Assembly (NCBI GenBank): GCA_963714275.1
Contig: CAVQNT010000002.1
Span: 896,001-960,000, forward strand
DNA: 64,000 bases
Source of the DNA: Candidatus Bathyarchaeota archaeon
GTDB lineage: Archaea; Thermoproteota; Bathyarchaeia; Bathyarchaeales; DTEX01
Reading direction: 5' to 3'
Positions 26,179-42,103 of this stretch are shown here, piece by piece. The number at the start of each line of letters is the position of its first letter. Positions within the stretch are counted from its first letter, which is position 1. The notes beneath the pieces are model-generated. The model saw only the letters and a list, made by a program, of their open reading frames with translations. It did not search any database and had not been told where the DNA came from. Both the position numbers and the translations under genes were made by a program.

Positions 26179-26513
26179 TCTTATCTAAAGAAGGCTTTCT
26201 AGCCAAAAAGATATGCTTTGTGAAAGTCTTTTTCAGAAGAATCTTATATATTAACATAGATCCTTGAGACATTGATTAACGAAGAAGCCTTGTTATTCGC
26301 TAAATACCTACGTGGCGAAAGAGAAACATGGGCTCCGAGAGTGTCATGTTTCGGTTGAATAGTCCTGTTAAATTATAGATGCATGGTATAGAGAATTGTA
26401 TCTATAAGTCTTATAATAATGAAATTAAAAAAGTCATTTGGGATAGTAATAGTGGTATGGAGTGTTATTAAGAAACATGAAGAGGAAAAAGAATATTATG
26501 AAGGTGAAACCCA

Positions 26514-30168: not shown

Positions 30169-30697
30169 AAAAAATTAATAGCAGACTGAAGCGAGAAGTT
30201 GAAGCTTATCTTTAAGAGTTTTAGGGCTGCTCTTTGCAGATTTGGGAATATTTTCTCTGGTCTGTTCATTTTTTGTTCCTTTTTATCGTTCTCTACCTGC
30301 TTGGAAACATTGGGATGGCACTTATACAATTGGGGCAGGAACGAGCAATGGACCTTTAGTAGAACTGTCCTATTGGCCAGTGGTTGAAGGAATGCTTGAA
30401 ATAAGCGGAGGCCACAATGATATTTATTTCTCAATAGAAGACTCTCAGGGAGGAACTGTAATTTCGAAAACGTTGGCGATAGATAGATACTACTTCGGTC
30501 CATTTCAGGCGTCACATAACACATATTATTTCAAGTTTGACAATAGTATAAGCCTGGATACACCCAAGACGGTATATTGGATAGTCCGTGCGTATTGGTA
30601 TAACCTTGTATTCTTAATATTTGGTGTTTCTTCACTGGCTTTGGGAATAATCGTATTGTTGTATGAAAGAAAAAAAGACCTATTCTTTCGTTGGCGT
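30169..30697 (+). pseudogene. Degenerate duplicate of gene 34522..35025
   Basis: Near-identical DNA to 34491-35022; damaged 5' end, stop codon lost. Confidence 0.7.
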
Positions 30698-33115: not shown

Positions 33116-33370
33116 TTACTCATAAATGGTCTTTCTGTGACCAACATCTAAGAAGACGACAAGTTGAGGCTTTGGTTCGATTATGTATATAATTCTATAT
33201 TTGTCCATTCTCCATCGCCATCGTCCCTCAAGCTCGCCTCGTAATCTAACACCTGAATAAGGGTTATTGAGTATCTCGTCGATAGCCCTTAAGATCCTAT
33301 TCTTTATGTTCTCTGGGAGTTTCTTGAACTCTCTAAGAAAACTTTTGGTTAAGGCAGCTTTGTAAGCCAA
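33116..33370 (-). CDS. relE: RelE/ParE family toxin
   Basis: KKLP..I, NPY.G..LRG, YRIIY, VGHRK.IY. Confidence 0.88.
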   Translation of the reverse strand: MAYKAALTKSFLREFKKLPENIKNRILRAIDEILNNPYSGVRLRGELEGRWRWRMDKYRIIYIIEPKPQLVVFLDVGHRKTIYE

Positions 33371-33379
33371 AGCCGTTAT

Positions 33380-33598
33380 TCACTCAGTAAATTTCTTAAT
33401 TTCACTGCTATTTTGAACTGTTATGTATTCTCCTTTCACGTATTCTTGTTCAGCCTTACGTATTCTCTCCAAGCCTTCCTTGTCCATTAACTCCTCAAGT
33501 GTTGTGAGAACCTCTTCAACTTTGGCTAGTCCCGTATAGAGGTCTTTTAACAACTCCTTGGGTATAGAAACGGTTTCTGCCACGCTATGCACCAGCAA
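33380..33598 (-). CDS. Putative antitoxin
   Basis: Upstream of relE; TLEELMD...ERIRKA. Confidence 0.7.
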   Translation of the reverse strand: MLVHSVAETVSIPKELLKDLYTGLAKVEEVLTTLEELMDKEGLERIRKAEQEYVKGEYITVQNSSEIKKFTE

Positions 33599-34404: not shown

Positions 34405-34503
34405 TTTATAATTTTTTGTGCGATATACGATACATACGATACAGAGGATGCAAACAGAAGCGGATAAAAGTAAATAAGAGAAAAAAAAGAAAAAAATTTA
34501 ATA
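34405..34503. repeat. Degenerate element terminus in reverse orientation
   Basis: Reverse complement CTCTTATT..TGTATCGTATGTATCGTATATCGCACAAAAAA resembles 50308-50395. Confidence 0.6.
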
Positions 34504-34521
34504 GCAGATTGAAGCGAGAAG

Positions 34522-35025
34522 TTGAATATTTCAAGAGTTTTAGGAATATTATTTCTGCTCTTCGTAGTTTTGGGAATATTATTTCTGGTCTGTTCATTTT
34601 TTGTTCCTTTTTACAGTTTTCTACCTGCTTGGAAACATTGGGAGGGTACTTATACAATTGGGGCAGGAACAAGCAATGGGCCTTTAGTAGAACTGTCCTA
34701 CGGGCCAGTGGTTGAAGGAATACTTGTCATAGACGGAGGCAACAATGATATTAATTTCTCAGTAGAAGACTTTCAGGGAGGAACTGTTATTTCGAAAACG
34801 TTGGCGTCAGATAGATACTACTTCGGTCCATTTCAGGCGTTTCAAAATACATATTATTTCATTTTCGACAATAGCATGAGTCTTAACCCCAAGACGGTAT
34901 ATTGGATAGTCCGTGCGTATTGGTATAACCTTGTATTCTTAATATTTGGTGTTTCTTCACTGGCTTTGGGAATAATCGTATTGTTGTATGAAAGAAAAAA
35001 AGGCCTATCCTTTAGTTGGCGTTAA
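34522..35025 (+). CDS. Membrane protein with GOLD-like beta domain
   Basis: TM-GGNNDINF..YYFIFDN-TM. Confidence 0.7.
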   Translation: MNISRVLGILFLLFVVLGILFLVCSFFVPFYSFLPAWKHWEGTYTIGAGTSNGPLVELSYGPVVEGILVIDGGNNDINFSVEDFQGGTVISKTLASDRYYFGPFQAFQNTYYFIFDNSMSLNPKTVYWIVRAYWYNLVFLIFGVSSLALGIIVLLYERKKGLSFSWR

Positions 35026-35100
35026 TTAATCTAAATGTCTCCGGGATTCTTATATTTGGGTACCATAGTCAGCTTAGCTCGTAGAATGGTTTGGGTTTGG

Positions 35101-35115
35101 GACTAAATTTTAATC
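35101..35115. repeat. Left target-site duplication GACTAAATTTTAATC
   Basis: Exact direct copy at 41506-41520. Confidence 0.92.
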
Positions 35116-35230
35116 TTTTTCTTCTTCTTCTTCTGTTATGTTCTGTTACGTTACGTTATATAATCTCGTCTTGTCTTCTTCTCTTATCTACTGACTCTCA
35201 CACTCTCTTCGCTCTGCACTCTGCTCCTCT
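35116..35230 (+). repeat. Left terminal inverted repeat
   Basis: Reverse complement of 41394-41505 except for one extra CTT. Confidence 0.95.
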
Positions 35231-35264
35231 CTGTAGAAAACAACTAGAACAAAGAAGACAAAGA

Positions 35265-35819
35265 CTAGGAATACTTCTCTAAATAATCATTTATGGCTTT
35301 GAGAATTCTTCCTTTGTAAACTTCATCTTTAACACTTTTCTCTATTATCCAAGAGCTGACAAAATCCGTTATAGGATGAATGCATAATCTTACAGCAATC
35401 TGTTTGTCAAGGCTTTCAGGGTCTAACTCGTATTCGATTCGGTTTTGAATCTCTTTTAGTTTCCTAAGAAAATGAAAAACTAGGGCTTCATCTATTTGTT
35501 CATTCTCAGGTAGAGAAAAAAAAGACTCTTTACTTTTTCGTTCGAATTCTGTCATTCTTTTAAGTTCATCTGAAGCTTCGATTAGTTTACCAAATTTTTC
35601 GTTGTTTAGGCTGTAAGTTACATATTGGCTTCCTTCTTTTGGAGTTCGAATGACATATTTGGCTTCAATTAGATGTTTAAGATGGTTATTCAATGTTGGT
35701 TTAGACATCTCTTCTGTTCGTCCATGCACAAAAAACTTGTATAGTTCATTGAAATGCATCTGTTCTTGGAGAAATAGAGCCACGAATATTTTGGTGCAGT
35801 ATTCGTCTAATCCTGTCAA
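35265..35819 (-). CDS. Winged-HTH transcriptional regulator
   Basis: MHFNEL..MSKPTL.NHLK.L....V.R...YSL; start trimmed because the longer ORF overlaps the divergent gene. Confidence 0.75.
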   Translation of the reverse strand: MTGLDEYCTKIFVALFLQEQMHFNELYKFFVHGRTEEMSKPTLNNHLKHLIEAKYVIRTPKEGSQYVTYSLNNEKFGKLIEASDELKRMTEFERKSKESFFSLPENEQIDEALVFHFLRKLKEIQNRIEYELDPESLDKQIAVRLCIHPITDFVSSWIIEKSVKDEVYKGRILKAINDYLEKYS

Positions 35820-35843
35820 GTTTTTCGCCTTTGTTAAGTTACC

Positions 35844-35855
35844 AGTAAATTTACT
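35844..35855. promoter_or_regulatory. Perfect palindrome AGTAAATTTACT in divergent promoter (candidate operator)
   Basis: Lies between the divergent wHTH and AbrB-like genes. Confidence 0.4.
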
Positions 35856-35911
35856 ACTAGTTAATATACTACTACTTAAACCTTTGTGTAAACACCTGTG
35901 AGGTAATAAAT

Positions 35912-36085
35912 ATGCCACATGAAGAAACAAGAAAAATAATCAAGGTAGGAGAAACTTCTTTCGCAGTTATCCTTCCAATGCCTTGGCTCAGATACTATAA
36001 ACTCGACAACAAAGATTCAGTTGAAGTCATTTCAGATGGCGCCGTAACAATAAAACCGCTAAAGAAAAAAGAGGCTAAACCATGA
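35912..36085 (+). CDS. AbrB/MazE-like DNA-binding protein (57 aa, not in ORF track)
   Basis: MPHEETRKIIKVGETSFAVILPMPWLRYYKL...VEV...VTIKP; GAGGT RBS. Confidence 0.75.
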   Translation: MPHEETRKIIKVGETSFAVILPMPWLRYYKLDNKDSVEVISDGAVTIKPLKKKEAKP

Positions 36086-36507
36086 CCGAAGACATGAAAC
36101 TGAAAGAACGAGCTGAATGGCAACAGTTCAACGAAGCCATCGAAAAAGAAGGAAAAGAACGCATCAGCCTCAGCGAATACCGCAAACTAGCAGAAAAAGA
36201 CAAGCATCCTGAAGACTTCATTGAAAATATAGGCTCATCTAGACCATTAGCTCACCAAGCCCAAGAAGAAATGAACGCTCAAAGGACAATTCGAGCCTTC
36301 AACATGGAAATAGAACTTTTGAAGAAAAACCCGAATTGCCACGTTGAAATTGGTCTTTCCCGTGGAGCTCCCATAAAAGGCGTTTTCAGAGGATTAGACG
36401 AAAGATACGCTAAAATTGCAGTTGAAGAGGACGGTTCAACGAAAGAATTAACCATAGTCCGCCTCGGCTACGTTGTTGCGATGCGAATTAGAATGACAAG
36501 TGAGTAA
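36082..36507 (+). CDS. Hypothetical protein with possible C-terminal Sm/LSm-like fold
   Basis: VEI.L..G..IKG.F.G.D pattern. Confidence 0.55.
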   Translation: MTEDMKLKERAEWQQFNEAIEKEGKERISLSEYRKLAEKDKHPEDFIENIGSSRPLAHQAQEEMNAQRTIRAFNMEIELLKKNPNCHVEIGLSRGAPIKGVFRGLDERYAKIAVEEDGSTKELTIVRLGYVVAMRIRMTSE

Positions 36508-36509
36508 CC

Positions 36510-37033
36510 ATGAGGTTTAGTCTTCTTTTGCAGAAAAGACTCAAAATCAGTCGGATTACTCTGTTCTTTAAAGGATATTTTCTGATATCTAACACTCAAA
36601 CGCTTGGAGGCGTAACCTCTAGGGTTGTTGGAGAAAAACGCATTCACTACATTTTTTGGGATTTTGACAAGTGCACTCTCGGAGAAATTGAAACAAAACT
36701 AGGTCAAATTCAGCGAGAATTCGGTCTCGGTAACATCTATGTAACCTCTGACCTTGAAGGTTCGTATCGAGCTTGGTGCTTCTCTAAAAGGTCTTGGATA
36801 GAATACTTGCACATTCTAATCAGCTCTTTTCCATTGTTGGATTACGGATTTTGGGTTTGGACAGTAAGACGTGGAGTGCAACATTGAGAATTAACAAAAA
36901 AGAGGGAAGACAACCTCAGCGTGTTATTTCATTCCTGAAAGGCTACGAAGAAACTAGCATTCCAGAAAAAATGGTTCATGTCATTTATGACACTGGAATA
37001 GAAAAAAGTGGCATGGTGGTCAAAATTGGATAA
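36510..37033 (+). CDS. Small AEP (primase-polymerase)-like protein, frameshift near 36875
   Basis: IFWDFD, YVTS..GSY, LLD, TLRI; two ORFs join by one base. Confidence 0.5.
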
Positions 37034-37361
37034 ATTCCCAGAGGCATTCGCAAGGTTCGAGGAAGACGTTGACACTGAAGAAATTGAAGATTTCAGAGAA
37101 TTGAAAGCCAGTTTCAGCCTCTGGGCTGGTGAACACTGGGTAGGTTCCTCGAGGCAGATAAGTGCTTTGAAGGTTGAAGCTCATAGACTTGGAATTTCCG
37201 TTCCAGTTGTGGCTAAGCCAAAACGGATTGCTAAGGGAAGAGCTCGCAGAGGCAAAGTTGAAGCTCGGACTTGGCGTTTCGAAAAGGTAACTGTGAAGGG
37301 TAAATCTCAACCTCGTTACCGAGACTTGGAGACTGGAAGGTTCATCAAAAAACCCGAGTAG
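37008..37361 (+). CDS. Hypothetical protein with basic C-terminus RYRD..TGRF
   Basis: Homolog at 51160..51375. Confidence 0.7.
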   Translation: MAWWSKLDKFPEAFARFEEDVDTEEIEDFRELKASFSLWAGEHWVGSSRQISALKVEAHRLGISVPVVAKPKRIAKGRARRGKVEARTWRFEKVTVKGKSQPRYRDLETGRFIKKPE

Positions 37362-37373
37362 GAAGGTGAAACT

Positions 37374-37610
37374 ATGAGGTGGAAGGATTGCGGATATTTA
37401 TGTGTAAGTAAAAGCGGAAAGAAAATTGTCATAGTCATTAAGCATATTCGATATGTTGCAACTTTGGAAGCGTTCATGAAAATCTTGGATGGAAAACAAA
37501 ATTACACTCTGATCTATGAACCGCCACAGAAAGAAGTGAAAAAAGGACTTTTTGATGAGATGAGCAAAGAAGAACAGCTGGAAAGAATGAAACTGCTTAG
37601 AGGTGATTGA
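37374..37610 (+). CDS. Hypothetical protein
   Basis: GGTGA RBS, operonic position. Confidence 0.6.
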   Translation: MRWKDCGYLCVSKSGKKIVIVIKHIRYVATLEAFMKILDGKQNYTLIYEPPQKEVKKGLFDEMSKEEQLERMKLLRGD

Positions 37611-37612
37611 GG

Positions 37613-37868
37613 ATGGCGAAAAAACAGAGTTTGGTTTTGAACCTCAATGAGAAAAGCGACTATGAAAGACTTGAAGAACTGCTTAACAAAGGATACGAGT
37701 TGAGGCAAGTTTTGAATAATCTTGTAATTTTGGAGCTGAAGGAAACAGAACAAAAAATTGTTAATCTTGGTCAACGTATCACATGACAAGGTAGATGACC
37801 TTCTGAAGGAAGGCTACGAAGTTAAAGAATCGTATAAAGACAGCGTGGTACTCGTCAAGAAGGCTTAA
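37613..37868 (+). CDS. Hypothetical protein with two LL..GYE repeats, frameshift near 37765
   Basis: ELLNKGYE and DLLKEGYE in adjacent frames. Confidence 0.5.
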
Positions 37869-37871
37869 AGT

Positions 37872-38078
37872 GTGAATCCATTGCACAAGTTGATGGTTGA
37901 CGAGTGTTTTAGTGGTGGCGAAACCCTGAGCATCGAGCTTGTTAGTAAGAGAACAGACCTACATTTTTGGGAGGCAGCACACTGGCTCGGTAAATTGGTG
38001 CATGAGGGAAGACTAAAAATCGTGTTTCGAAAAGACGGAAGAAAAGCAATTAAAACACTGTATTATGTGAGAGCTTAG
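37872..38078 (+). CDS. Small winged-HTH-like protein
   Basis: LS...VS...L...A...L.KL...G.L...YY. Confidence 0.55.
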   Translation: MNPLHKLMVDECFSGGETLSIELVSKRTDLHFWEAAHWLGKLVHEGRLKIVFRKDGRKAIKTLYYVRA

Positions 38079-38154
38079 CAGTTAGATCATAGAATTGAAT
38101 TATAGAAACTTGTTTCAGAAACTACAAAACAAGCGATCTGCATAGATTCTAGGC

Positions 38155-39189
38155 ATGGTTAAATCGAAAGTTTTGAAGCTATCTTGGATGGTCAAGGCTC
38201 TTATCTTGGAAGAGCTGAAGGCTGTTTCGAGGTTCGAGACAGAAACAAGAACATAACTCGTTATCCACATTTTGAAAGAGAAATAGGCGAAGCAGTCCTA
38301 AAAAGCGGAAACTACGTTTCAGTTGACGCTTTAATTGACCTTGCATTGTGGAATGTTGACACATACATCATGACCAAAAAGAACCGTGTTGCAGCAGTTT
38401 TAAAGAACCTAGAAGACGATTCTCACGTTAAAACTAGGGTTTGCCAATATAAAGCCCTAGAAGACGGTAAAGGCATTCAAATCGCTAAACAATTGGTTCA
38501 AAGCAAGAATCAGAGGACAATGTTCAGTTCTCAAAAAATATGATATTAAAATTCCAGAGCTAAACATTGAAGGAATGATTGAAAGCGTAAATTCGGAAAG
38601 CCTAGAATTTGCGAGAATAAAACTGACTTCTATTGAAGGCAAATTTTCAGAACTTTACTTCAAGCAGATTTTCAGCTTGTTTCCAGAGAACATTAGACCT
38701 AAGAAGAGAATGACTTTCAAGGCTTACGATGGAATAAACAACGTCTTCAATTTTGGCTATTACGTCTTGAAATGCAAAATTCATAAGGCTTTGATTAAGG
38801 CTAAACTTGAACCTTATTTAGGCTTTTTGCACAGTGTCCAGTTTGGGAAGCCTAGTTTAGTGTGCGATTTTCAAGAACTGTACCGCTACCTCATAGACGA
38901 TTTTCTGATTGAACGTAGAACGAAGTTTCACAAAAACGACTTTGTAATTATAACAGACTTTATGATGCGTCTTCGTATGGGAAAGAAGATTCACTTGTGC
39001 GATTACGAGACTGATAGTCTAGCTAAAGACTTAAATTCACTATTTGAACGAACAATCGAAATCCCACGTATAAAAGTCGGCAAAAAGCAAACACTTGAAA
39101 CGTTGATTAACGAAGAAACCTTACTATTTGCTAAGTATCTAAGAAATGAATGGAAATCTTGGACTCCAAGAATAGCGGTGTTAAAATAA
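38155..39189 (+). CDS. cas1: Cas1-solo endonuclease (casposase-like), frameshifts near 38180 and 38507
   Basis: G.YLG...G.F.V, SGN.VS.DAL, QY.A, IEG..S..YF, NNVFNFGY..L, LEPYLGFLH, SLVCDFQELYR..ID: catalytic E/H/D residues present. Confidence 0.93.
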
Positions 39190-39205
39190 GCCATTAGCGA
39201 AGAAT

Positions 39206-40223
39206 TTACTCCGAAAAGAAATCTTGGAGTCTTTTCATTTCTCCTTGTATTTCTTGGGGTTTGCTAATTTTTCTAGATTCTTCAGCTTGTAAATTGCATA
39301 GCCTCTTAAAGAAATATTCCAGCCTATTTTTCTCGATGTCCTTTCCGTAATAAATTTTGTATTTTTCATTATCCAATTTATCAGCAAGACCAATTTCACA
39401 GAACTTCTTTAGCGTGTTTTGTACCCACCTTTTCCTAATTTGAGCCATTTCGCCCTTCAAACCAGACCAAGGTATATAGTACTCGTAAGCTTTTTCTAAT
39501 ATTTGGTCAAGATTGACTTCAAAATCCTCACTTCCTTCACTGAAAGTAGGGAAAATTTCTCCCCATATCTCATTCATTAAGTATGATATCGGGGGTTCTT
39601 TTCTTGTGAATTTGCATGAAGAATATTCAACTGCTAGTTTTTGGATATCAAAGCTAATTCCATTTTCAATCCTTTTTTGTAGTTCAGCACAATTCACATT
39701 TCCGCTAACATGTTTAATGATAATTTTGTCTAGAGCTGGGAACTTCATGCCTTGTATTAGTCCCCATTCAGTTATACACAAACTTCTTTTAAGTTCTAGT
39801 TCTCCATCACTTACCATTTTTGATATGATTCTTAGAAACTCGAGCCGAATCTTCAAGATAAACAAGTAAGAGAACATCGTGGTTCTGCACCCATTTAACA
39901 GCTGTATCCCACCCTCCGACTTCTTTCATATACTTCTGTAATTGGGGCAGTAATCCAAGTCTGGCTATCGAATTCAGCTGAGGAATTGAGGTCTTAACCT
40001 CGCAAAGGATACCGCATTTATCATCATCATATTGCATAACAATATCAGGCTTTACCTCTTCTCCATCTTTCGTGCGGAATATGGGTTCTGAATAGACAAA
40101 TTTACAGCCAAACTTATAATTTTCCAAGTAGTTCTTTATTCCAAGCGTGAGAAGAACTGTATCGTAGTATCTTTGAAATTCAAGCTTCTTGCTTCTCAGA
40201 CAATATTCAAATTCTGAGGAAGC
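39206..40223 (-). CDS. PD-(D/E)XK nuclease-like cargo protein, frameshift near 39850
   Basis: KPDIV...LCEVKT; two overlapping ORFs. Confidence 0.6.
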
Positions 40224-40237
40224 CATTCTGAGAACCC

Positions 40238-41286
40238 TCACTCAAAGAAATCGGCTATTTTGCCTTCATGAAAGGCTCTCTATAAGGTGCTTTGAGAAAC
40301 GCATTAAAGCTGCCTTTGTGGCTTTGATTTGGGGCATAACTAAAAGTGAATCTGAATCGTATGTTCTGAGTGAAAATGATGAATTATCTATCCTATCAAG
40401 TAAAGTCAAATAGATATGAGGATTACCTTCGTGAACAATTGAATAGGAACAGAAAGGATATTCTTGAATTGTTTTTATAAATCTTTTACGAATTTCTTCT
40501 TCATCGAACATAGTTTCATCAAATTTAATAATAAGAGGATTTACCTTTTTCTGAGGGTCATCCTTTCTGCTTCTTCCTTCAAATCTCTTATACTTTGAAC
40601 GACACATCTCAGACCATTTTTGAAGTAAAACATAATATTCGTCGAAAGCCCCAAGAGAGTATTGCATAATTCCCTTTCTGCTCATACTAAAATCATATTT
40701 CGCTGAAATTACACTTATGCTGTCGATCCAAAGTCGATCTTTGCGAACAATCTCAAAGGTTTTTGTGAATTCTTGGGATTCGAATCGTATATTAGATACC
40801 CTTTGTTCTCCGAACATACGCTTGGCAACATACTTATTAGTGTTGAAGTCAACTTTCTTGTTTTCACTAAAAAATGTCAGAAGTTCAAAAATCTCTTGAG
40901 ATGTTAAATACCCTAATATAGCATTAGGATACATCATTGTAGTTAAGTATAAAAGGCATCTATCTACATAGCGCGAAGACTCACCTGTTATAAGAAAAAT
41001 TTGATTCTCTTTTTGAAGTGCATAAAATCTACCTTTTACATCCTGTTCCCTCATTCGTCTAGTTGCCTCACAAAACCATAGCTGAGTGAGGCTCTTGTTC
41101 GTTATGAGATAGGTTAGAATATTTTATCTCTATGCCCTCCTCTAAAGCCAAATCTTTAAGAATTTGTTCGAATTTCATATCTGAAAGCAAAGAAAGGACC
41201 TTTACAGAGCCATAACTTCGTTTTAGGGCAGAAGCGGAATAATTATTAAGTATAAGCTTCTGGGCGAACGTTATTTCATCAGACAA
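40238..41286 (-). CDS. Hypothetical cargo protein of about 350 aa after repairing frameshifts near 41070 and 40270
   Basis: ORFs 41068..41286 and 40266..41054 join; HEGNPH, D.SSF, PQ motifs. Confidence 0.6.
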
Positions 41287-41393
41287 ATCTTAATCCCTAT
41301 TATGTCTCAGCTCAATAAGACAATTAAGGCTTTGGGTTTTTCTAAAGGGATTAAAAATCTGTTTTATTGTCAGATTAGTGTAGAGAGTAGAGT

Positions 41394-41505
41394 AGAGGAG
41401 CAGAGTGCAGAGCGAAGAGAGTGTGAGAGTCAGTAGATAAGAGAAGAAGACAAGACGAGATTATATAACGTAACGTAACAGAACATAACAGAAGAAGAAG
41501 AAAAA
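41394..41505 (-). repeat. Right terminal inverted repeat
   Basis: Reverse complement of 35116-35230. Confidence 0.95.
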
Positions 41506-41520
41506 GACTAAATTTTAATC
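41506..41520. repeat. Right target-site duplication GACTAAATTTTAATC
   Basis: Identical to 35101-35115. Confidence 0.92.
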
Positions 41521-41795
41521 CCCACACACACACTTATTTTCTTTTATTCTTTTATTTTTTCTTTTATTCTCTTTCCCTCTGAACGTATATCCCGTGTATC
41601 GTGTATATCTCATACAACTGATTGACAAAATGTAGCACAAAACACATAAATACAAGTCTGTCATGAGGAAGCTGGAGATGTCTTAGTTAGCTAAAGAAAA
41701 TAATTTTTATTTAGCGCGCGCGCTAAGATTATTCAATTCCGAATTCTTGTAGACTATAGAACTGCTGAAGGTATTCTACGCCTTTTTCAGTGGTT

Positions 41796-41999
41796 TTAAT
41801 TAAGTCTGCCGTTGCCTTCAGAATTTGCGATTAATCCTGCTTTTTTGAGTTTTTCAAGGTACTCTTCCAGCATCTTGAAGTTCATGTTAGCTCCATACAC
41901 TATTCTGGTTTTTTTGGCGCCTTTGCTAGCAATTTTCAGAATCTCAGCAACAATTTCTAGGTTGCTTCTTCTCTGTGACATATACATTTTCGTTAACAT
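41796..41999 (-). CDS. Winged-HTH regulator, 3' frameshift
   Basis: RRSNLEI..EIL..GAKKTRI.YGAN.N. Confidence 0.8.
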   Translation of the reverse strand: MLTKMYMSQRRSNLEIVAEILKIASKGAKKTRIVYGANMNFKMLEEYLEKLKKAGLIANSEGNGRLN

Positions 42000-42103
42000 T
42001 GTTTCTTACCTCGCTTTCGAATTATAGTCCAATGTTTCGAACACAATGCTGGGCTTCCCGAATTGAACCTAATATAAATTCAGTCACTTGCGTAATCATC
42101 GCA

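What the first reader, a model, noticed from the sequence alone, without database searches (positions are those of the whole stretch)
35101..41520. Compact casposon-like transposon: solo Cas1 between long TIRs and a 15-bp TSD, with no family-B DNA polymerase
Seen: 35116-35230 and 41394-41505 are exact inverted repeats apart from one CTT. GACTAAATTTTAATC flanks both ends in direct orientation (13 bp if the terminal C/G belong to the TIRs). Cas1 (38155-39189) is the only recognisable integrase; there is no cas2, CRISPR array, DDE transposase, tyrosine recombinase or PolB. Established: casposons are defined by Cas1 + PolB + TIRs + TSD, and characterised casposases make TSDs of roughly 14-15 bp. 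Inference: this is a distinct, small (6.39 kb) Cas1-mobilised element class without PolB. Identical TIRs and TSD imply recent insertion.
Basis: partly seen in the sequence, partly recalled or inferred. Interest (0 to 1): 0.95.

Follow-up and report, generated by a model that had tools for sequence, protein, structure and literature searches.

The report
Cas1 transposon without DNA polymerase
A 6.4-kb mobile element in an archaeal genome appears to use a CRISPR-type Cas1 enzyme to insert itself into one specific 15-base site, yet it lacks the DNA polymerase found in all described relatives (casposons) and carries a small primase-like gene instead.

Summary
Window 35116-41505 is a 6,390-bp element with 112-115-nt terminal inverted repeats, flanked by an exact 15-bp direct repeat. 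Contigs from two public metagenome runs join 35100 directly to 41506 with one copy of the 15-mer. That is the empty site, so this is a real and fairly recent insertion.

Cas1 is the only recognisable integrase inside. No PolB, Cas2, DDE or tyrosine recombinase was found. The genome has no cas2 and no CRISPR array.

The element belongs to a family. There are two more Cas1-bearing copies in this genome, and 8 of 15 related loci in Bathyarchaeia genomes show the same layout at 3.9-7.6 kb. All sit in the near-palindrome GATTAAAWTTTAATC or close variants.

The core is Cas1 plus two unnamed genes. One of them (ORF-A) gives weak but recurrent matches to archaeo-eukaryotic primase models (20 of 52 relatives).

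The family's Cas1 forms its own deep clade (100/99). It is not nested in any Cas2-adjacent Cas1 sampled.

The window copy has two frameshifts in cas1 and one in ORF-A, so it may be defective. I found no description in print. I read it as a new PolB-less casposon family.

The parts
35088..35100 (.). (TTTGGG)n-like simple repeat directly left of the target 15-mer: target context, or the stub of an older element
   Evidence: Sequence read. The same kind of flank adjoins many copies of the 15-mer in the genome and in other genomes.
35101..35115 (+). Left copy of the 15-bp target-site duplication, GACTAAATTTTAATC
   Evidence: 15/15 direct identity. Empty-site contigs keep a single copy ('both = 15').
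35116..35230 (+). Left terminal inverted repeat, starting TTTTTCTTCTTC...
   Evidence: 112 nt, 99%. Termini are compared. A pyrimidine-rich TTT(T)CTCTC-type start is shared by 10 of 11 Cas1-bearing elements.
35265..35930 (-). 221-aa ORF with only weak helix-turn-helix hits (ArsR/MarR, E about 0.03). Possible regulator; not a core gene.
35912..36085 (+). 57-aa AbrB/MazE-type (SpoVT) DNA-binding protein
   Evidence: PF04014, E 1.6e-5, 25.2 bits, above the cut-off of 24.7. A different small ORF next to cas1 in the C4 and C7 copies looks similar by eye (not scanned).
36082..36507 (+). 141-aa ORF, no family found
36510..37033 (+). ORF-A, a core gene, AEP-primase-like. Here it is split by one frameshift into 36510-36887 and 36794-37033.
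   Evidence: Both pieces match the intact 177-aa C4 protein. Present in 10 of 13 candidate elements. The family has 729 representatives at E<=1e-3. 20 of 52 diverse members hit PF24387 AEP-like (best E 1.7e-4) and one hits PF16793 RepB_primase (7e-6), all below the curated cut-offs.
37008..37361 (+). ORF-B, a core gene of unknown function. It has a conserved N-terminal (M)DRFPEAFxRFE region and a basic tail, and always lies just downstream of ORF-A.
   Evidence: Present in 10 of 13 candidate elements. No Pfam or PHROG family.
37374..37610 (+). 78-aa ORF shared with the C7 copy and with L022
38155..39189 (+). cas1, the predicted integrase. It is interrupted by a -1 shift near 38182-38190 and a +1 shift near 38507. 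The catalytic residues lie in the last piece.
   Evidence: PF01867 on both pieces. 74-77% identical to the intact C4 Cas1. Frameshifts placed. The E/H/D/E motifs IEGK, FLHSV and CDFQE are present.
39206..39877 (-). 223-aa cargo ORF, no family found
39807..40241 (-). 144-aa cargo ORF, no Pfam family. A PD-(D/E)xK-like pattern (PDIV...CEVK) was seen by eye only.
   Evidence: The nuclease idea is my reading, not a tool result.
40266..41054 (-). 262-aa cargo ORF, no family found
41068..41286 (-). 72-aa cargo ORF, no family found
41394..41505 (-). Right terminal inverted repeat
41506..41520 (+). Right copy of the 15-bp target-site duplication
41521..41533 (.). CCCACACACACAC simple repeat directly right of the target
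   Evidence: The same class of flank occurs at other copies of the 15-mer.

Best explanation
Window 35116-41505 is one copy of a family of small (3.9-7.6 kb) casposon-like DNA transposons of Bathyarchaeia-type archaea.

Shown:
- The element was inserted into a single 15-bp site, which is now duplicated on both sides. Populations without the insertion exist.
- Copies in this and other genomes share long TIRs that begin with a pyrimidine-rich run. They share the same near-palindromic 15-bp target, GATTAAAWTTTAATC or close variants.
- They share a core of three genes: cas1, ORF-A and ORF-B. None carries a family-B polymerase.

Inferred:
- Cas1 acts alone, without Cas2, as the integrase. It would join the 3' ends of the TIRs to staggered positions 15 bp apart on the two strands of the target, and gap repair would produce the duplication. 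This is the mechanism demonstrated for casposases.
- The G/T-rich repeat next to the 15-mer may serve as the recognition determinant, like the 18-bp upstream segment needed by the A. boonei casposase.
- Each insertion regenerates two copies of the target. New elements therefore land beside old ones, which would explain the islands of element ends in this genome.
- ORF-A, a small AEP-primase-like protein, together with ORF-B takes the place of PolB. It could prime copying of the element, or fill the gaps, with synthesis completed by itself or by host polymerases.

The window copy carries three frameshifts in cas1 and ORF-A. If these are real, it now depends on Cas1 and ORF-A supplied by intact copies such as the one on contig C4.
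For: Insertion and TSD:
-.
- Empty-site contigs in 2 of 4 runs laid, from two studies. X3 record 21 is 396 nt and X4 record 26 is 313 nt. Each has 2-3 other letters per side and skips exactly 6,405 bases with 15 shared letters.

Family:
- 5 T-bounded inverted-repeat segments in this genome, 3 of them with Cas1.
- 15 related loci, 13 of them titled Bathyarchaeota or Bathyarchaeia. 8 have TIRs plus a flanking 15-mer.
- In all 11 Cas1-bearing elements the two 15-mers match better as direct than as inverted repeats; 8 are 15/15.
- More than 2,000 Cas1 homologues at E<=1e-5. The top 120 are at least 67% identical, mostly on contigs of 1-7 kb.

Only integrase, no PolB:
-.
- tblastn with 14 queries found no hit in 12 elements. 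The queries were the cellular PolB and all 13 ORFs of 560-720 aa from the pPolB-linked loci, selected by length only.
- The genome has no pPolB.
- Its one intact PolB is 70-88% identical to full-length matches in 6 relatives and sits among housekeeping genes.

Not a CRISPR module:
- No cas2 in the genome and no array by a crude repeat finder.

Cas1 looks active in the family:
- E162, H227 and D239 are in 23 of 23 members. Position 242 is E in 20 and D in 3.
- Full-length match to TIGR00287 at 139 bits.

Cas1 is a separate clade, 100/99 support.

Core genes: cas1 in 11, ORF-A in 10 and ORF-B in 10 of 13 candidate elements.

ORF-A is AEP-like: 20 of 52 diverse members hit PF24387 and 1 hits RepB_primase; no other family recurs in more than one member.

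Target is tied to the elements: 18 exact sites in this genome against 0 for the reversed control pattern and 0 in 28 of 30 relatives.

Precedent for a site-specific 15-bp TSD made by a casposase: PMC5137440, passages read.
Against: - No experiment links this Cas1 to the TIRs. The role is inferred from homology and from the absence of any other integrase. Several ORFs of each element have no recognisable family.
- The window's own cas1 and ORF-A are frameshifted. Three class-I aminoacyl-tRNA synthetase genes have long open frames, so the assembly is not generally error-ridden and the copy may be dead. The reads available did not cover the frameshift positions at near-identity.
- The AEP assignment rests on sub-threshold matches. 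The best E is 1.7e-4, below the 27-bit cut-off. The C4 and window subfamily itself gave no hit, and only 2 of 28 close members did. Profile searches of the PDB found nothing. The motif-II histidine is not conserved.
- Pairing of the family with pPolB-linked (family-1 type) Cas1 has only 91/53 support, and the tool flags it as a possible long-branch artefact. Without that group the family attaches to an unresolved polytomy. No family 2-4 casposases and no Cas1 from outside Thermoproteota were in the tree.
- 7 of the 15 related loci did not show both ends with my 15-mer search.
- No near-identical second copy of the window element exists in the genome, so there is no sign of a recent burst here.
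Confidence: 0.78

Rival explanations
1. The element is an integrative plasmid-like or virus-like replicon rather than a transposon. ORF-A and ORF-B would form a primase-based replicon that maintains an extrachromosomal form, and Cas1 would serve only to integrate that form into the 15-bp site, as an att-like site is used.
For: - AEP primases are typical replication proteins of small archaeal plasmids (general knowledge, not tested here).
- The core pairs a primase-like gene with an integrase.
- Insertion is strictly site-specific.
- Many family members sit on metagenome contigs of about element size.
Against: - Long TIRs plus a TSD are the signature of transposase-type, two-ended integration.
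- The four short contigs I inspected carry host flanks and are neither circular nor ended at TIRs.
- No circle junction or 'goes back' joint appeared in four runs (contigs only).
- No capsid or packaging gene was found.
- The two readings overlap: casposons themselves are thought to pass through an excised copy.
Confidence: 0.15
2. Cas1 is cargo or a relic, and an unrecognised transposase among the unnamed ORFs (ORF-B, or a nuclease-like cargo protein) moves the element.
For: ORF-B is as conserved in the family as Cas1 and has no known fold. Most ORFs of the element have no family.
Against: - Cas1 is the most conserved gene and usually the largest.
- It keeps all four catalytic residues in 23 of 23 members.
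- The 15-bp TSD equals the one made by a characterised casposase (PMC5137440).
- The non-core ORFs differ between copies.
Confidence: 0.05
3. The region is a decayed CRISPR adaptation locus or an assembly artefact, not a mobile element.
For: Cas1 is a full-length match to the general Cas1 model. By single-sequence search it is closer to an Archaeoglobus CRISPR Cas1 (4n06, E 1.7e-20) than to the M. mazei casposase (6opm, E 3.7e-13).
Against: - Empty and occupied forms of the site both exist in public data.
- The same TIR/TSD layout is seen in at least 8 other genomes.
- The genome has no cas2 and no array.
- Cas1 lies outside the Cas2-adjacent clades sampled.
Confidence: 0.02

Closest known systems
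Casposons, families 1-4 (Krupovic et al. 2014, PMC4046053; Thaumarchaeota survey, PMC6563490)
   Same: - A Cas1 homologue with intact catalytic residues as the only integrase.
- TIRs and a 15-bp TSD.
- Site-specific insertion and re-use of the same site by several elements. Tandem casposons are reported in PMC6563490 (passages read).
- No cas2 or CRISPR array alongside.
- DNA methyltransferase cargo in some copies.
   Different: - No family-B polymerase of either kind, in elements as small as 3.9 kb. Described casposons were found by searching for cas1 together with polB (PMC4046053), so PolB-less elements would have been missed.
- The core instead holds a small AEP-primase-like ORF and ORF-B.
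- The target is a multi-copy intergenic near-palindrome, not a tRNA or ef-2 gene.
- Cas1 is a plain 340-350-aa Cas1 without extra domains and forms a separate deep clade.
Aciduliprofundum boonei casposase target (PMC5137440)
   Same: A 15-bp TSD at a defined site, with an essential recognition segment directly upstream of the duplicated segment (passages read). Here a (TTTGGG)n-type segment sits directly beside the 15-mer at many sites.
   Different: There the target overlaps the 3' end of tRNA-Pro and is single-copy. Here it is an AT-rich near-palindrome present at 18 exact sites, and at 91 sites with up to 2 mismatches (some of those by chance), in one genome. The role of the flank is untested here.
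CRISPR-associated primase-polymerases, CAPPs (PMC8211822)
   Same: A genetic partnership between Cas1 and an AEP-superfamily enzyme. CAPPs are proposed to fill gaps or displace strands after Cas1-mediated integration (passages read).
   Different: - CAPPs sit in CRISPR operons with Cas1-Cas2 in bacteria. Here the partner is in a transposon without Cas2.
- ORF-A is much smaller (about 165-185 aa).
- ORF-A matched a different AEP model (PF24387), and only weakly.
- No homology between ORF-A and CAPPs was tested.
Cas2-adjacent Cas1 of Thermoproteota CRISPR loci
   Same: Same fold family, length and catalytic residues. The highest profile scores among my references came from Cas2-adjacent Cas1 of genomes in the same order or class as the window's (95-106 bits).
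   Different: The family is separated from all 17 sampled by a branch of about 2.5 substitutions per site with 100/99 support. It has no cas2 or array nearby.

Membership tests
Casposons (Cas1-dependent self-synthesizing transposons) | Encodes a Cas1 homologue (casposase) with the four catalytic residues | tested here: met
   PF01867 on both cas1 pieces. The intact C4 copy matches TIGR00287 at 139 bits. E, H and D are conserved in 23 of 23 family members, with E or D at the fourth site. The window copy is frameshifted twice.
Casposons (Cas1-dependent self-synthesizing transposons) | Encodes a family-B DNA polymerase inside the element | tested here: not met
   No PolB domain in the element's ORFs. 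No tblastn hit in 12 elements with 14 queries: the cellular PolB plus 13 long ORFs from pPolB-linked loci, chosen by length. No pPolB in the genome. The one intact PolB is a conserved cellular gene outside any element.
Casposons (Cas1-dependent self-synthesizing transposons) | Terminal inverted repeats | tested here: met
   112 nt at 99%. TIRs of 96-132 nt in 6 of the 8 related elements (L018, L019, L020, L022, L025, L026); L013 aligns over 21 nt and L017 only weakly.
Casposons (Cas1-dependent self-synthesizing transposons) | Target-site duplication of about 14-15 bp | tested here: met
   15/15 direct repeat. Empty-site contigs keep one copy. The characterised casposase makes a 15-bp TSD (PMC5137440).
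Casposons (Cas1-dependent self-synthesizing transposons) | Cas1 groups with casposases rather than with CRISPR Cas1 in a phylogeny | tested here: inconclusive
   Sister to 9 pPolB-linked Cas1 at 91/53 support with a long-branch warning. Unresolved when that group is removed. Families 2-4 were not sampled. By phmmer, 4n06 (CRISPR Cas1) scores above 6opm (casposase).
Casposons (Cas1-dependent self-synthesizing transposons) | Cas1 integrates TIR ends into the target in vitro or in vivo | not testable with these tools
   Needs biochemistry or genetics.
CRISPR-Cas adaptation module | cas2 next to cas1 | tested here: not met
   PF09827 found nowhere in the genome, which is 91% complete. The same search found it in 189 of 401 genomes of the phylum.
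CRISPR-Cas adaptation module | CRISPR array in the locus or genome | tested here: not met
   A crude finder of my own (18-mers, at least 3 copies at 45-100 bp spacing) found none in the 10 contigs. It is not a dedicated CRISPR tool.
Archaeo-eukaryotic primase superfamily (for ORF-A) | Match to an AEP family model above its curated threshold | tested here: not met
   Best E 1.7e-4 to PF24387, below the 27-bit cut-off; 20 of 52 diverse members match weakly and one matches PF16793 at 7e-6. Among close members 2 of 28 match. The window and C4 copies match nothing.
Archaeo-eukaryotic primase superfamily (for ORF-A) | Catalytic acidic motifs (DxD/E and a third Asp) and the AEP fold | tested here: inconclusive
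   The alignments show a near-invariant Asp in hhWD(F/L)(D/E), a conserved later Asp and an invariant TLRxSxK arginine. The motif-II histidine varies. The fold could not be predicted because the tool was off. PDB profile searches were empty.

The most novel reading that the evidence does not exclude
This is a fifth, PolB-less family of casposons, common in Bathyarchaeia. The polymerase module has been replaced by a miniature AEP primase plus a partner protein. A stand-alone Cas1 inserts the element into a short palindromic repeat, which the insertion duplicates. New elements therefore stack up between copies of the same 15-bp repeat. That makes it a living analogue of the proposed step from casposon to CRISPR repeat-spacer array, and a natural Cas1-primase partnership parallel to the CAPPs of CRISPR loci.
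Probability: 0.5. Interest if true: 0.9.

Novelty: new variant of a known kind. Interest (0 to 1): 0.82.

Why it matters
Casposons matter because they are the proposed source of the CRISPR adaptation machinery. So far they have been defined and searched for as Cas1 plus PolB.

A widespread family that keeps Cas1, TIRs and the 15-bp duplication but lacks PolB has three consequences.
- The Cas1 integrase module is separable from self-synthesis by PolB.
- The known host range widens to one of the most abundant sediment archaeal groups.
- It supplies a compact system for testing how a Cas1 without Cas2 picks a short palindromic target. The system is a 3.9-kb minimal element, a 15-bp target and an intact Cas1 of 344 aa.

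Two further points bear on open questions. Re-use of a self-regenerating repeat target is close to what a proto-CRISPR array is imagined to have been. The link to a primase-like gene bears on which enzyme repairs Cas1 integration intermediates.

Small site-specific Cas1 integrases could also interest people who build DNA-insertion tools.

Tried and rejected
**Orthologous empty site in relatives.** The 2.7-kb left flank has no orthologue in 30 relatives. Only short or paralogous pieces matched, and parts of the flank are repeated within the genome itself. I therefore could not show the empty site in assembled genomes. It came from metagenome contigs instead.

**Checking the frameshifts with reads.** The five runs found hold at most 0.09 of the sampled words. 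In the four runs laid, no near-identical contig covers 38182-38190, about 38507 or 36800-36890. The frameshifts remain unverified. X2 holds three pieces of the element interior with no differences (35542-35849, 35908-36058, 37107-37257) at depth 2-3.

**ORF-A fold.**
- The protein Atlas does not hold P0121 or P0191.
- Profile searches of PDB sequences gave only chance-level hits.
- PHROGs gave nothing useful.

**ORF-B.** No Pfam or PHROG family.

**Extrachromosomal form.** Four short contigs are not circular and do not end at TIRs.

**Two T-bounded segments dropped from the family.**
- C6:469852-475250 has perfect inverted repeats of at least 150 nt that include the 15-mer in inverted orientation. 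It has no Cas1, and by eye it holds host-like genes.
- C2:344086-350636 has a weak TIR score and carries TauE and DUF2341 genes.

They are still counted in the '13 candidate elements'.

**PolB near the C7 copy.** I considered that the PolB 6 kb from it might belong to a larger casposon. I rejected this: it is conserved at 70-88% identity in 6 relatives and lies among housekeeping genes.

**Co-occurrence of the 15-mer and Cas1 across relatives.** Not clean. 4 relatives have a family Cas1 (plus one weak match) but no exact 15-mer, and two have the 15-mer but no Cas1 hit.

**Literature.** Searches found no paper that combines casposons or Cas1 transposons with Bathyarchaeia. The papers I searched by terms describe no PolB-less or primase-bearing casposon. 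The library lacks most subscription journals, and the 2017 casposon review was not held.

Full report
**1. The observation**

- GACTAAATTTTAATC stands at 35101-35115 and again at 41506-41520.
- Directly inside these copies lie inverted repeats, 35119-35230 and 41394-41505. They are 112 nt long and 99% complementary.
- The left arm has one extra CTT in its (CTT)n start, so it begins at 35116.
- The outer flanks are ...GGTTTGGGTTTGG and CCCACACACACAC....
- The two 15-mers are identical in direct orientation (15/15) and match only 12/15 when read as inverted repeats. They are therefore a duplication, not the tips of the TIRs.

**2. The insertion is real and polymorphic**

I laid Logan contigs of four public metagenome runs on 34601-42000. 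Two runs from two studies each gave a contig that joins 35100 directly to 41506. These are X3 record 21 (396 nt) and X4 record 26 (313 nt). Each skips exactly 6,405 bases, 15 letters fit either side of the joint, and each flank has only 2-3 differences.

This is the unoccupied site with a single 15-mer. It fixes the duplication at 15 bp and shows that closely related populations lack the element. A third run (X2) holds three pieces of the element interior without any difference, at low depth.

An orthologous empty site could not be found in 30 assembled relatives. The flanking DNA is not conserved there and is partly repeated within the genome.

**3. Gene content of the window copy**

Pfam finds Cas1 (PF01867) in two ORFs: 38184-38543 (E 2.1e-9) and 38575-39189 (E 9.6e-25).

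- The start codon at 38155 is in a third reading.
- Compared with an intact paralogue, one base is missing near 38182-38190 and one is extra near 38507.
- The catalytic motifs lie in the last piece and are intact.

Other ORFs:

- a 57-aa AbrB/MazE-type protein (E 1.6e-5);
- a protein with weak HTH hits;
- about ten ORFs without any family.

No PolB, Cas2, DDE transposase or tyrosine recombinase is inside.

A second gene, 36510-37033, is split by a frameshift. Both pieces match one 177-aa protein of the C4 copy.

Three class-I aminoacyl-tRNA synthetase genes of the genome have long open frames, so the assembly is not generally full of indels. The three frameshifts may be real decay. The reads available did not cover them.

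**4. A family, not a singleton**

*In this genome.* The genome is 2.64 Mb in 10 contigs, and the window is C2:896001-960000. It has seven Cas1 matches. Two have open frames of 349 aa: C4:100381-101202 and C7:144376-145197.

A search for pairs of 15-mer sites whose inner flanks are inverted repeats found five segments. Three contain cas1:

| Copy | Size | TIRs and flanks |
|---|---|---|
| Window | 6,390 bp | as above |
| C4:99114-105173 | 6,030 bp | 118-nt perfect TIRs; GATTAAATTTTAATC on both sides |
| C7:143209-147639 | 4,401 bp | TIRs that begin with (CCCAAA)n |

The other two hold no cas1 and carry host-like genes. They are C6:469852-475250 and C2:344086-350636. I do not count them as members.

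*In other genomes.* In the collection of one genome per species, 15 loci encode a relative of the C4 Cas1.

- 13 are titled Bathyarchaeota or Bathyarchaeia.
- One is a Thermoproteota single-cell assembly.
- One is a 5.6-kb contig binned as Levybacteria.

Eight of the 15 show TIRs and a flanking 15-mer around cas1, and six of these have TIRs of 96-132 nt. The 15-mer is GATTAAAWTTTAATC, GGTTAAAATTTAACC, GGTTAAAATTTAAGC or near variants. Element sizes are 3,906 to 7,633 bp. In the other seven I found at most one such site; several are short contigs.

In all 11 Cas1-bearing elements the two 15-mers match better as direct than as inverted repeats, and eight are 15/15. The TIRs differ in sequence between elements, but 10 of 11 start with a pyrimidine-rich TTT(T)CTCTC-type run.

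*In metagenomes.* The protein database holds 2,076 Cas1 homologues at E<=1e-5. The best 120 are all at least 67% identical, and most are on contigs of 1-7 kb.

**5. No polymerase**

- A tblastn search found no hit at E<=0.01 in 12 elements. The 14 queries were the cellular PolB and all 13 ORFs of 560-720 aa from the pPolB-linked loci, picked by length. Several of the 13 are therefore probably not polymerases.
- Cas1 is usually the largest ORF, and the smallest element is 3.9 kb.
- Other large ORFs are DNA methyltransferases (two elements), a ClpP-like protease, or have no family.
- The genome has no protein-primed PolB.
- Its only intact PolB (C7:153885-156140) has full-length matches of 70-88% identity in six relatives. 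It lies among amidohydrolase, CBS, TIM-barrel and Rad51-like genes, outside any 15-mer-bounded segment. It is a cellular gene.

**6. The core genes**

All-against-all comparison of ORFs from the 13 candidate segments gave three families present in most: Cas1 (11), ORF-A (10) and ORF-B (10). ORF-B always lies directly downstream of ORF-A.

ORF-A is 163-210 aa long.

- The window and C4 proteins have no Pfam or PHROG match.
- A profile of 28 close members found 729 cluster representatives at E<=1e-3 among 1.84 billion proteins, nearly all 150-200 aa long.
- When 52 diverse members were scanned one by one, 20 matched PF24387 ('AEP-like', best E 1.7e-4). One matched PF16793 (RepB primase, E 7e-6). 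No other family recurred in more than one member.
- All these scores are below the curated cut-offs.
- Among the 28 close members only 2 matched.
- The alignments show a near-invariant Asp in a hhWD(F/L)(D/E) strand, a later conserved Asp and an invariant arginine in TLRxSxK. The position of the usual motif-II histidine varies between H and R.

I read ORF-A as a miniature, divergent member of the archaeo-eukaryotic primase superfamily, with moderate confidence. The fold could not be checked.

ORF-B has a conserved N-terminal helical-looking region and a basic, variable tail. It has no known relatives.

**7. Which Cas1?**

The intact C4 protein (P0001, 344 aa) matches the general Cas1 model over its full length (TIGR00287, 139 bits). 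It matches no subtype model above its cut-off. It has no added domains.

By single-sequence search of PDB chains, the best match is Archaeoglobus Cas1 (4n06, E 1.7e-20). The M. mazei casposase follows (6opm, E 3.7e-13).

- Nine Cas1 genes lying within about 4-8 kb of a protein-primed PolB. This is the layout of family-1 casposons.
- 17 Cas1 genes lying next to cas2.

With 23 family members (IQ-TREE, LG+C20):

- the family is one clade (100/99) on a branch of about 2.5 substitutions per site;
- the pPolB-linked group is one clade (100/99);
- the two are joined at 91/53, with the tool's long-branch warning.

Without the pPolB group, the family attaches to an unresolved polytomy of Cas2-adjacent lineages.

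So the family is not nested in any sampled CRISPR clade, and its link to casposases is possible but not shown. Families 2-4 and other phyla were not sampled.

The four catalytic positions are conserved: E162, H227 and D239 in 23 of 23 members, and position 242 as E in 20 and D in 3.

The genome has no cas2, whereas 189 of 401 genomes of the phylum have one. A crude finder saw no CRISPR array.

**8. The target**

- The exact pattern GATTAAAWTTTAATC occurs at 18 sites in this genome. The reversed control pattern occurs at none, and 28 of 30 relatives have no exact site.
- With up to two mismatches there are 91 sites, some of them by chance.
- Most of these sites are flanked by one of a few sequence types:
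  - a pyrimidine-rich TIR start;
  - (CCCAAA)n;
  - (CACAC)n;
  - other simple repeats.
- Eight sites have (TTTGGG)n on one side and (CACAC)n on the other with no TIR. This is the same context as the window's pre-insertion site.
- Similar G/T-rich flanks adjoin elements in other genomes.
- Each insertion regenerates two target copies. The window itself holds further sites with element ends, at about 20705, 28240, 48190 and 50293. This fits repeated insertion beside older copies.
- It is not settled whether the simple repeats are a recognition determinant, like the 18-bp upstream segment required by the A. boonei casposase (PMC5137440), or stubs of older elements whose TIRs begin with such repeats, as in the C7 copy.

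**9. Mechanism**

The best-supported reading is this. Cas1, without Cas2, joins the TIR 3' ends to positions 15 bp apart on the two strands of the palindromic target, and repair yields the duplication. The steps are as demonstrated for casposases and are inferred here.

ORF-A and ORF-B replace PolB. They may prime or carry out the DNA synthesis needed to copy the element or to fill the integration gaps. A similar role has been proposed for the CRISPR-associated primase-polymerases that partner Cas1-Cas2 (PMC8211822).

The window copy, if its frameshifts are real, would have to be mobilised in trans.

**10. Novelty**

Five full-text searches found no paper that links casposons or Cas1 transposons with Bathyarchaeia. 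Term searches within six papers found no description of a PolB-less or primase-bearing casposon.

The founding paper located casposons by co-occurrence of cas1 and polB, which would miss this family.

The library is incomplete and supplements were closed, so prior description cannot be excluded.

I rate this a new variant of a known kind: a casposon-like family that fails one defining feature (PolB) and meets the others.

Noticed in passing
G000 genome-wide, e.g. window 26263-26340 (C2:922263-922340); C7:139348-139419; C4:95919-96032; C6:198035-198232: About 20 loci keep only the last 25-45 codons of cas1. Each runs to the stop codon, with variable 5' truncation. At C6:417605-417949 such a cas1 end lies 114 nt from a (TTTGGG)n-15-mer junction. 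They may be terminal stubs of deleted elements. Why this end survives is unexplained.
   Followed up: partly
window about 20705, 28240, 48190, 50293 (C2:916705, 924240, 944190, 946293): Further copies of the 15-mer in the window. Most are flanked on one side by a pyrimidine-rich TIR-like start and on the other by simple repeats. The window lies in an island of such element ends. No clean TIR pairs were found for these.
   Followed up: partly
G000:C6:469852-475250 (L030): A 5.4-kb segment bounded by perfect inverted repeats of at least 150 nt. The repeats include a 15-mer-like site in inverted orientation plus part of the GGGTTTGGG flank. It holds no cas1. By eye it encodes Alba-like, OB-fold and TFE-like proteins (not scanned).
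   Followed up: partly
window 34492-35022 vs window 30169-30697: The gene left of the element (a 167-aa predicted membrane protein) has an 89% identical DNA copy 4 kb upstream. Other pieces of the left flank are repeated on C2 and C4. The neighbourhood is itself repetitive.
   Followed up: no
window 33116-33598, minus strand: Two small adjacent ORFs that by eye look like a RelE/ParE-type toxin with an upstream antitoxin. Not scanned.
   Followed up: no
G000:C2:470903-472097 and G000:C3:240001-241219: Two further family-B polymerase genes are each split over two reading frames. I did not examine whether this is real or due to assembly error.
   Followed up: no
L015 (MFNH01000027.1, 5,648 bp): A contig carrying a family Cas1 (69% identical) and one 15-mer with a TIR-like end is filed under a Levybacteria (bacterial) bin. 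All other named hosts are Bathyarchaeia or Thermoproteota. Mis-binning is likely.
   Followed up: no
window 35122 / 41586 in run X3: One contig joins 35122 to 41586 with 31 other letters between. This suggests a different small occupant or rearrangement at the same site in another population.
   Followed up: no
G000:C7:148067-149333 (L029 11067-12333): Two overlapping ORFs just right of the C7 element give weak, sub-threshold hits to archaeal or phage integrase domains (E 0.002-0.003). They lie outside the TIRs.
   Followed up: no
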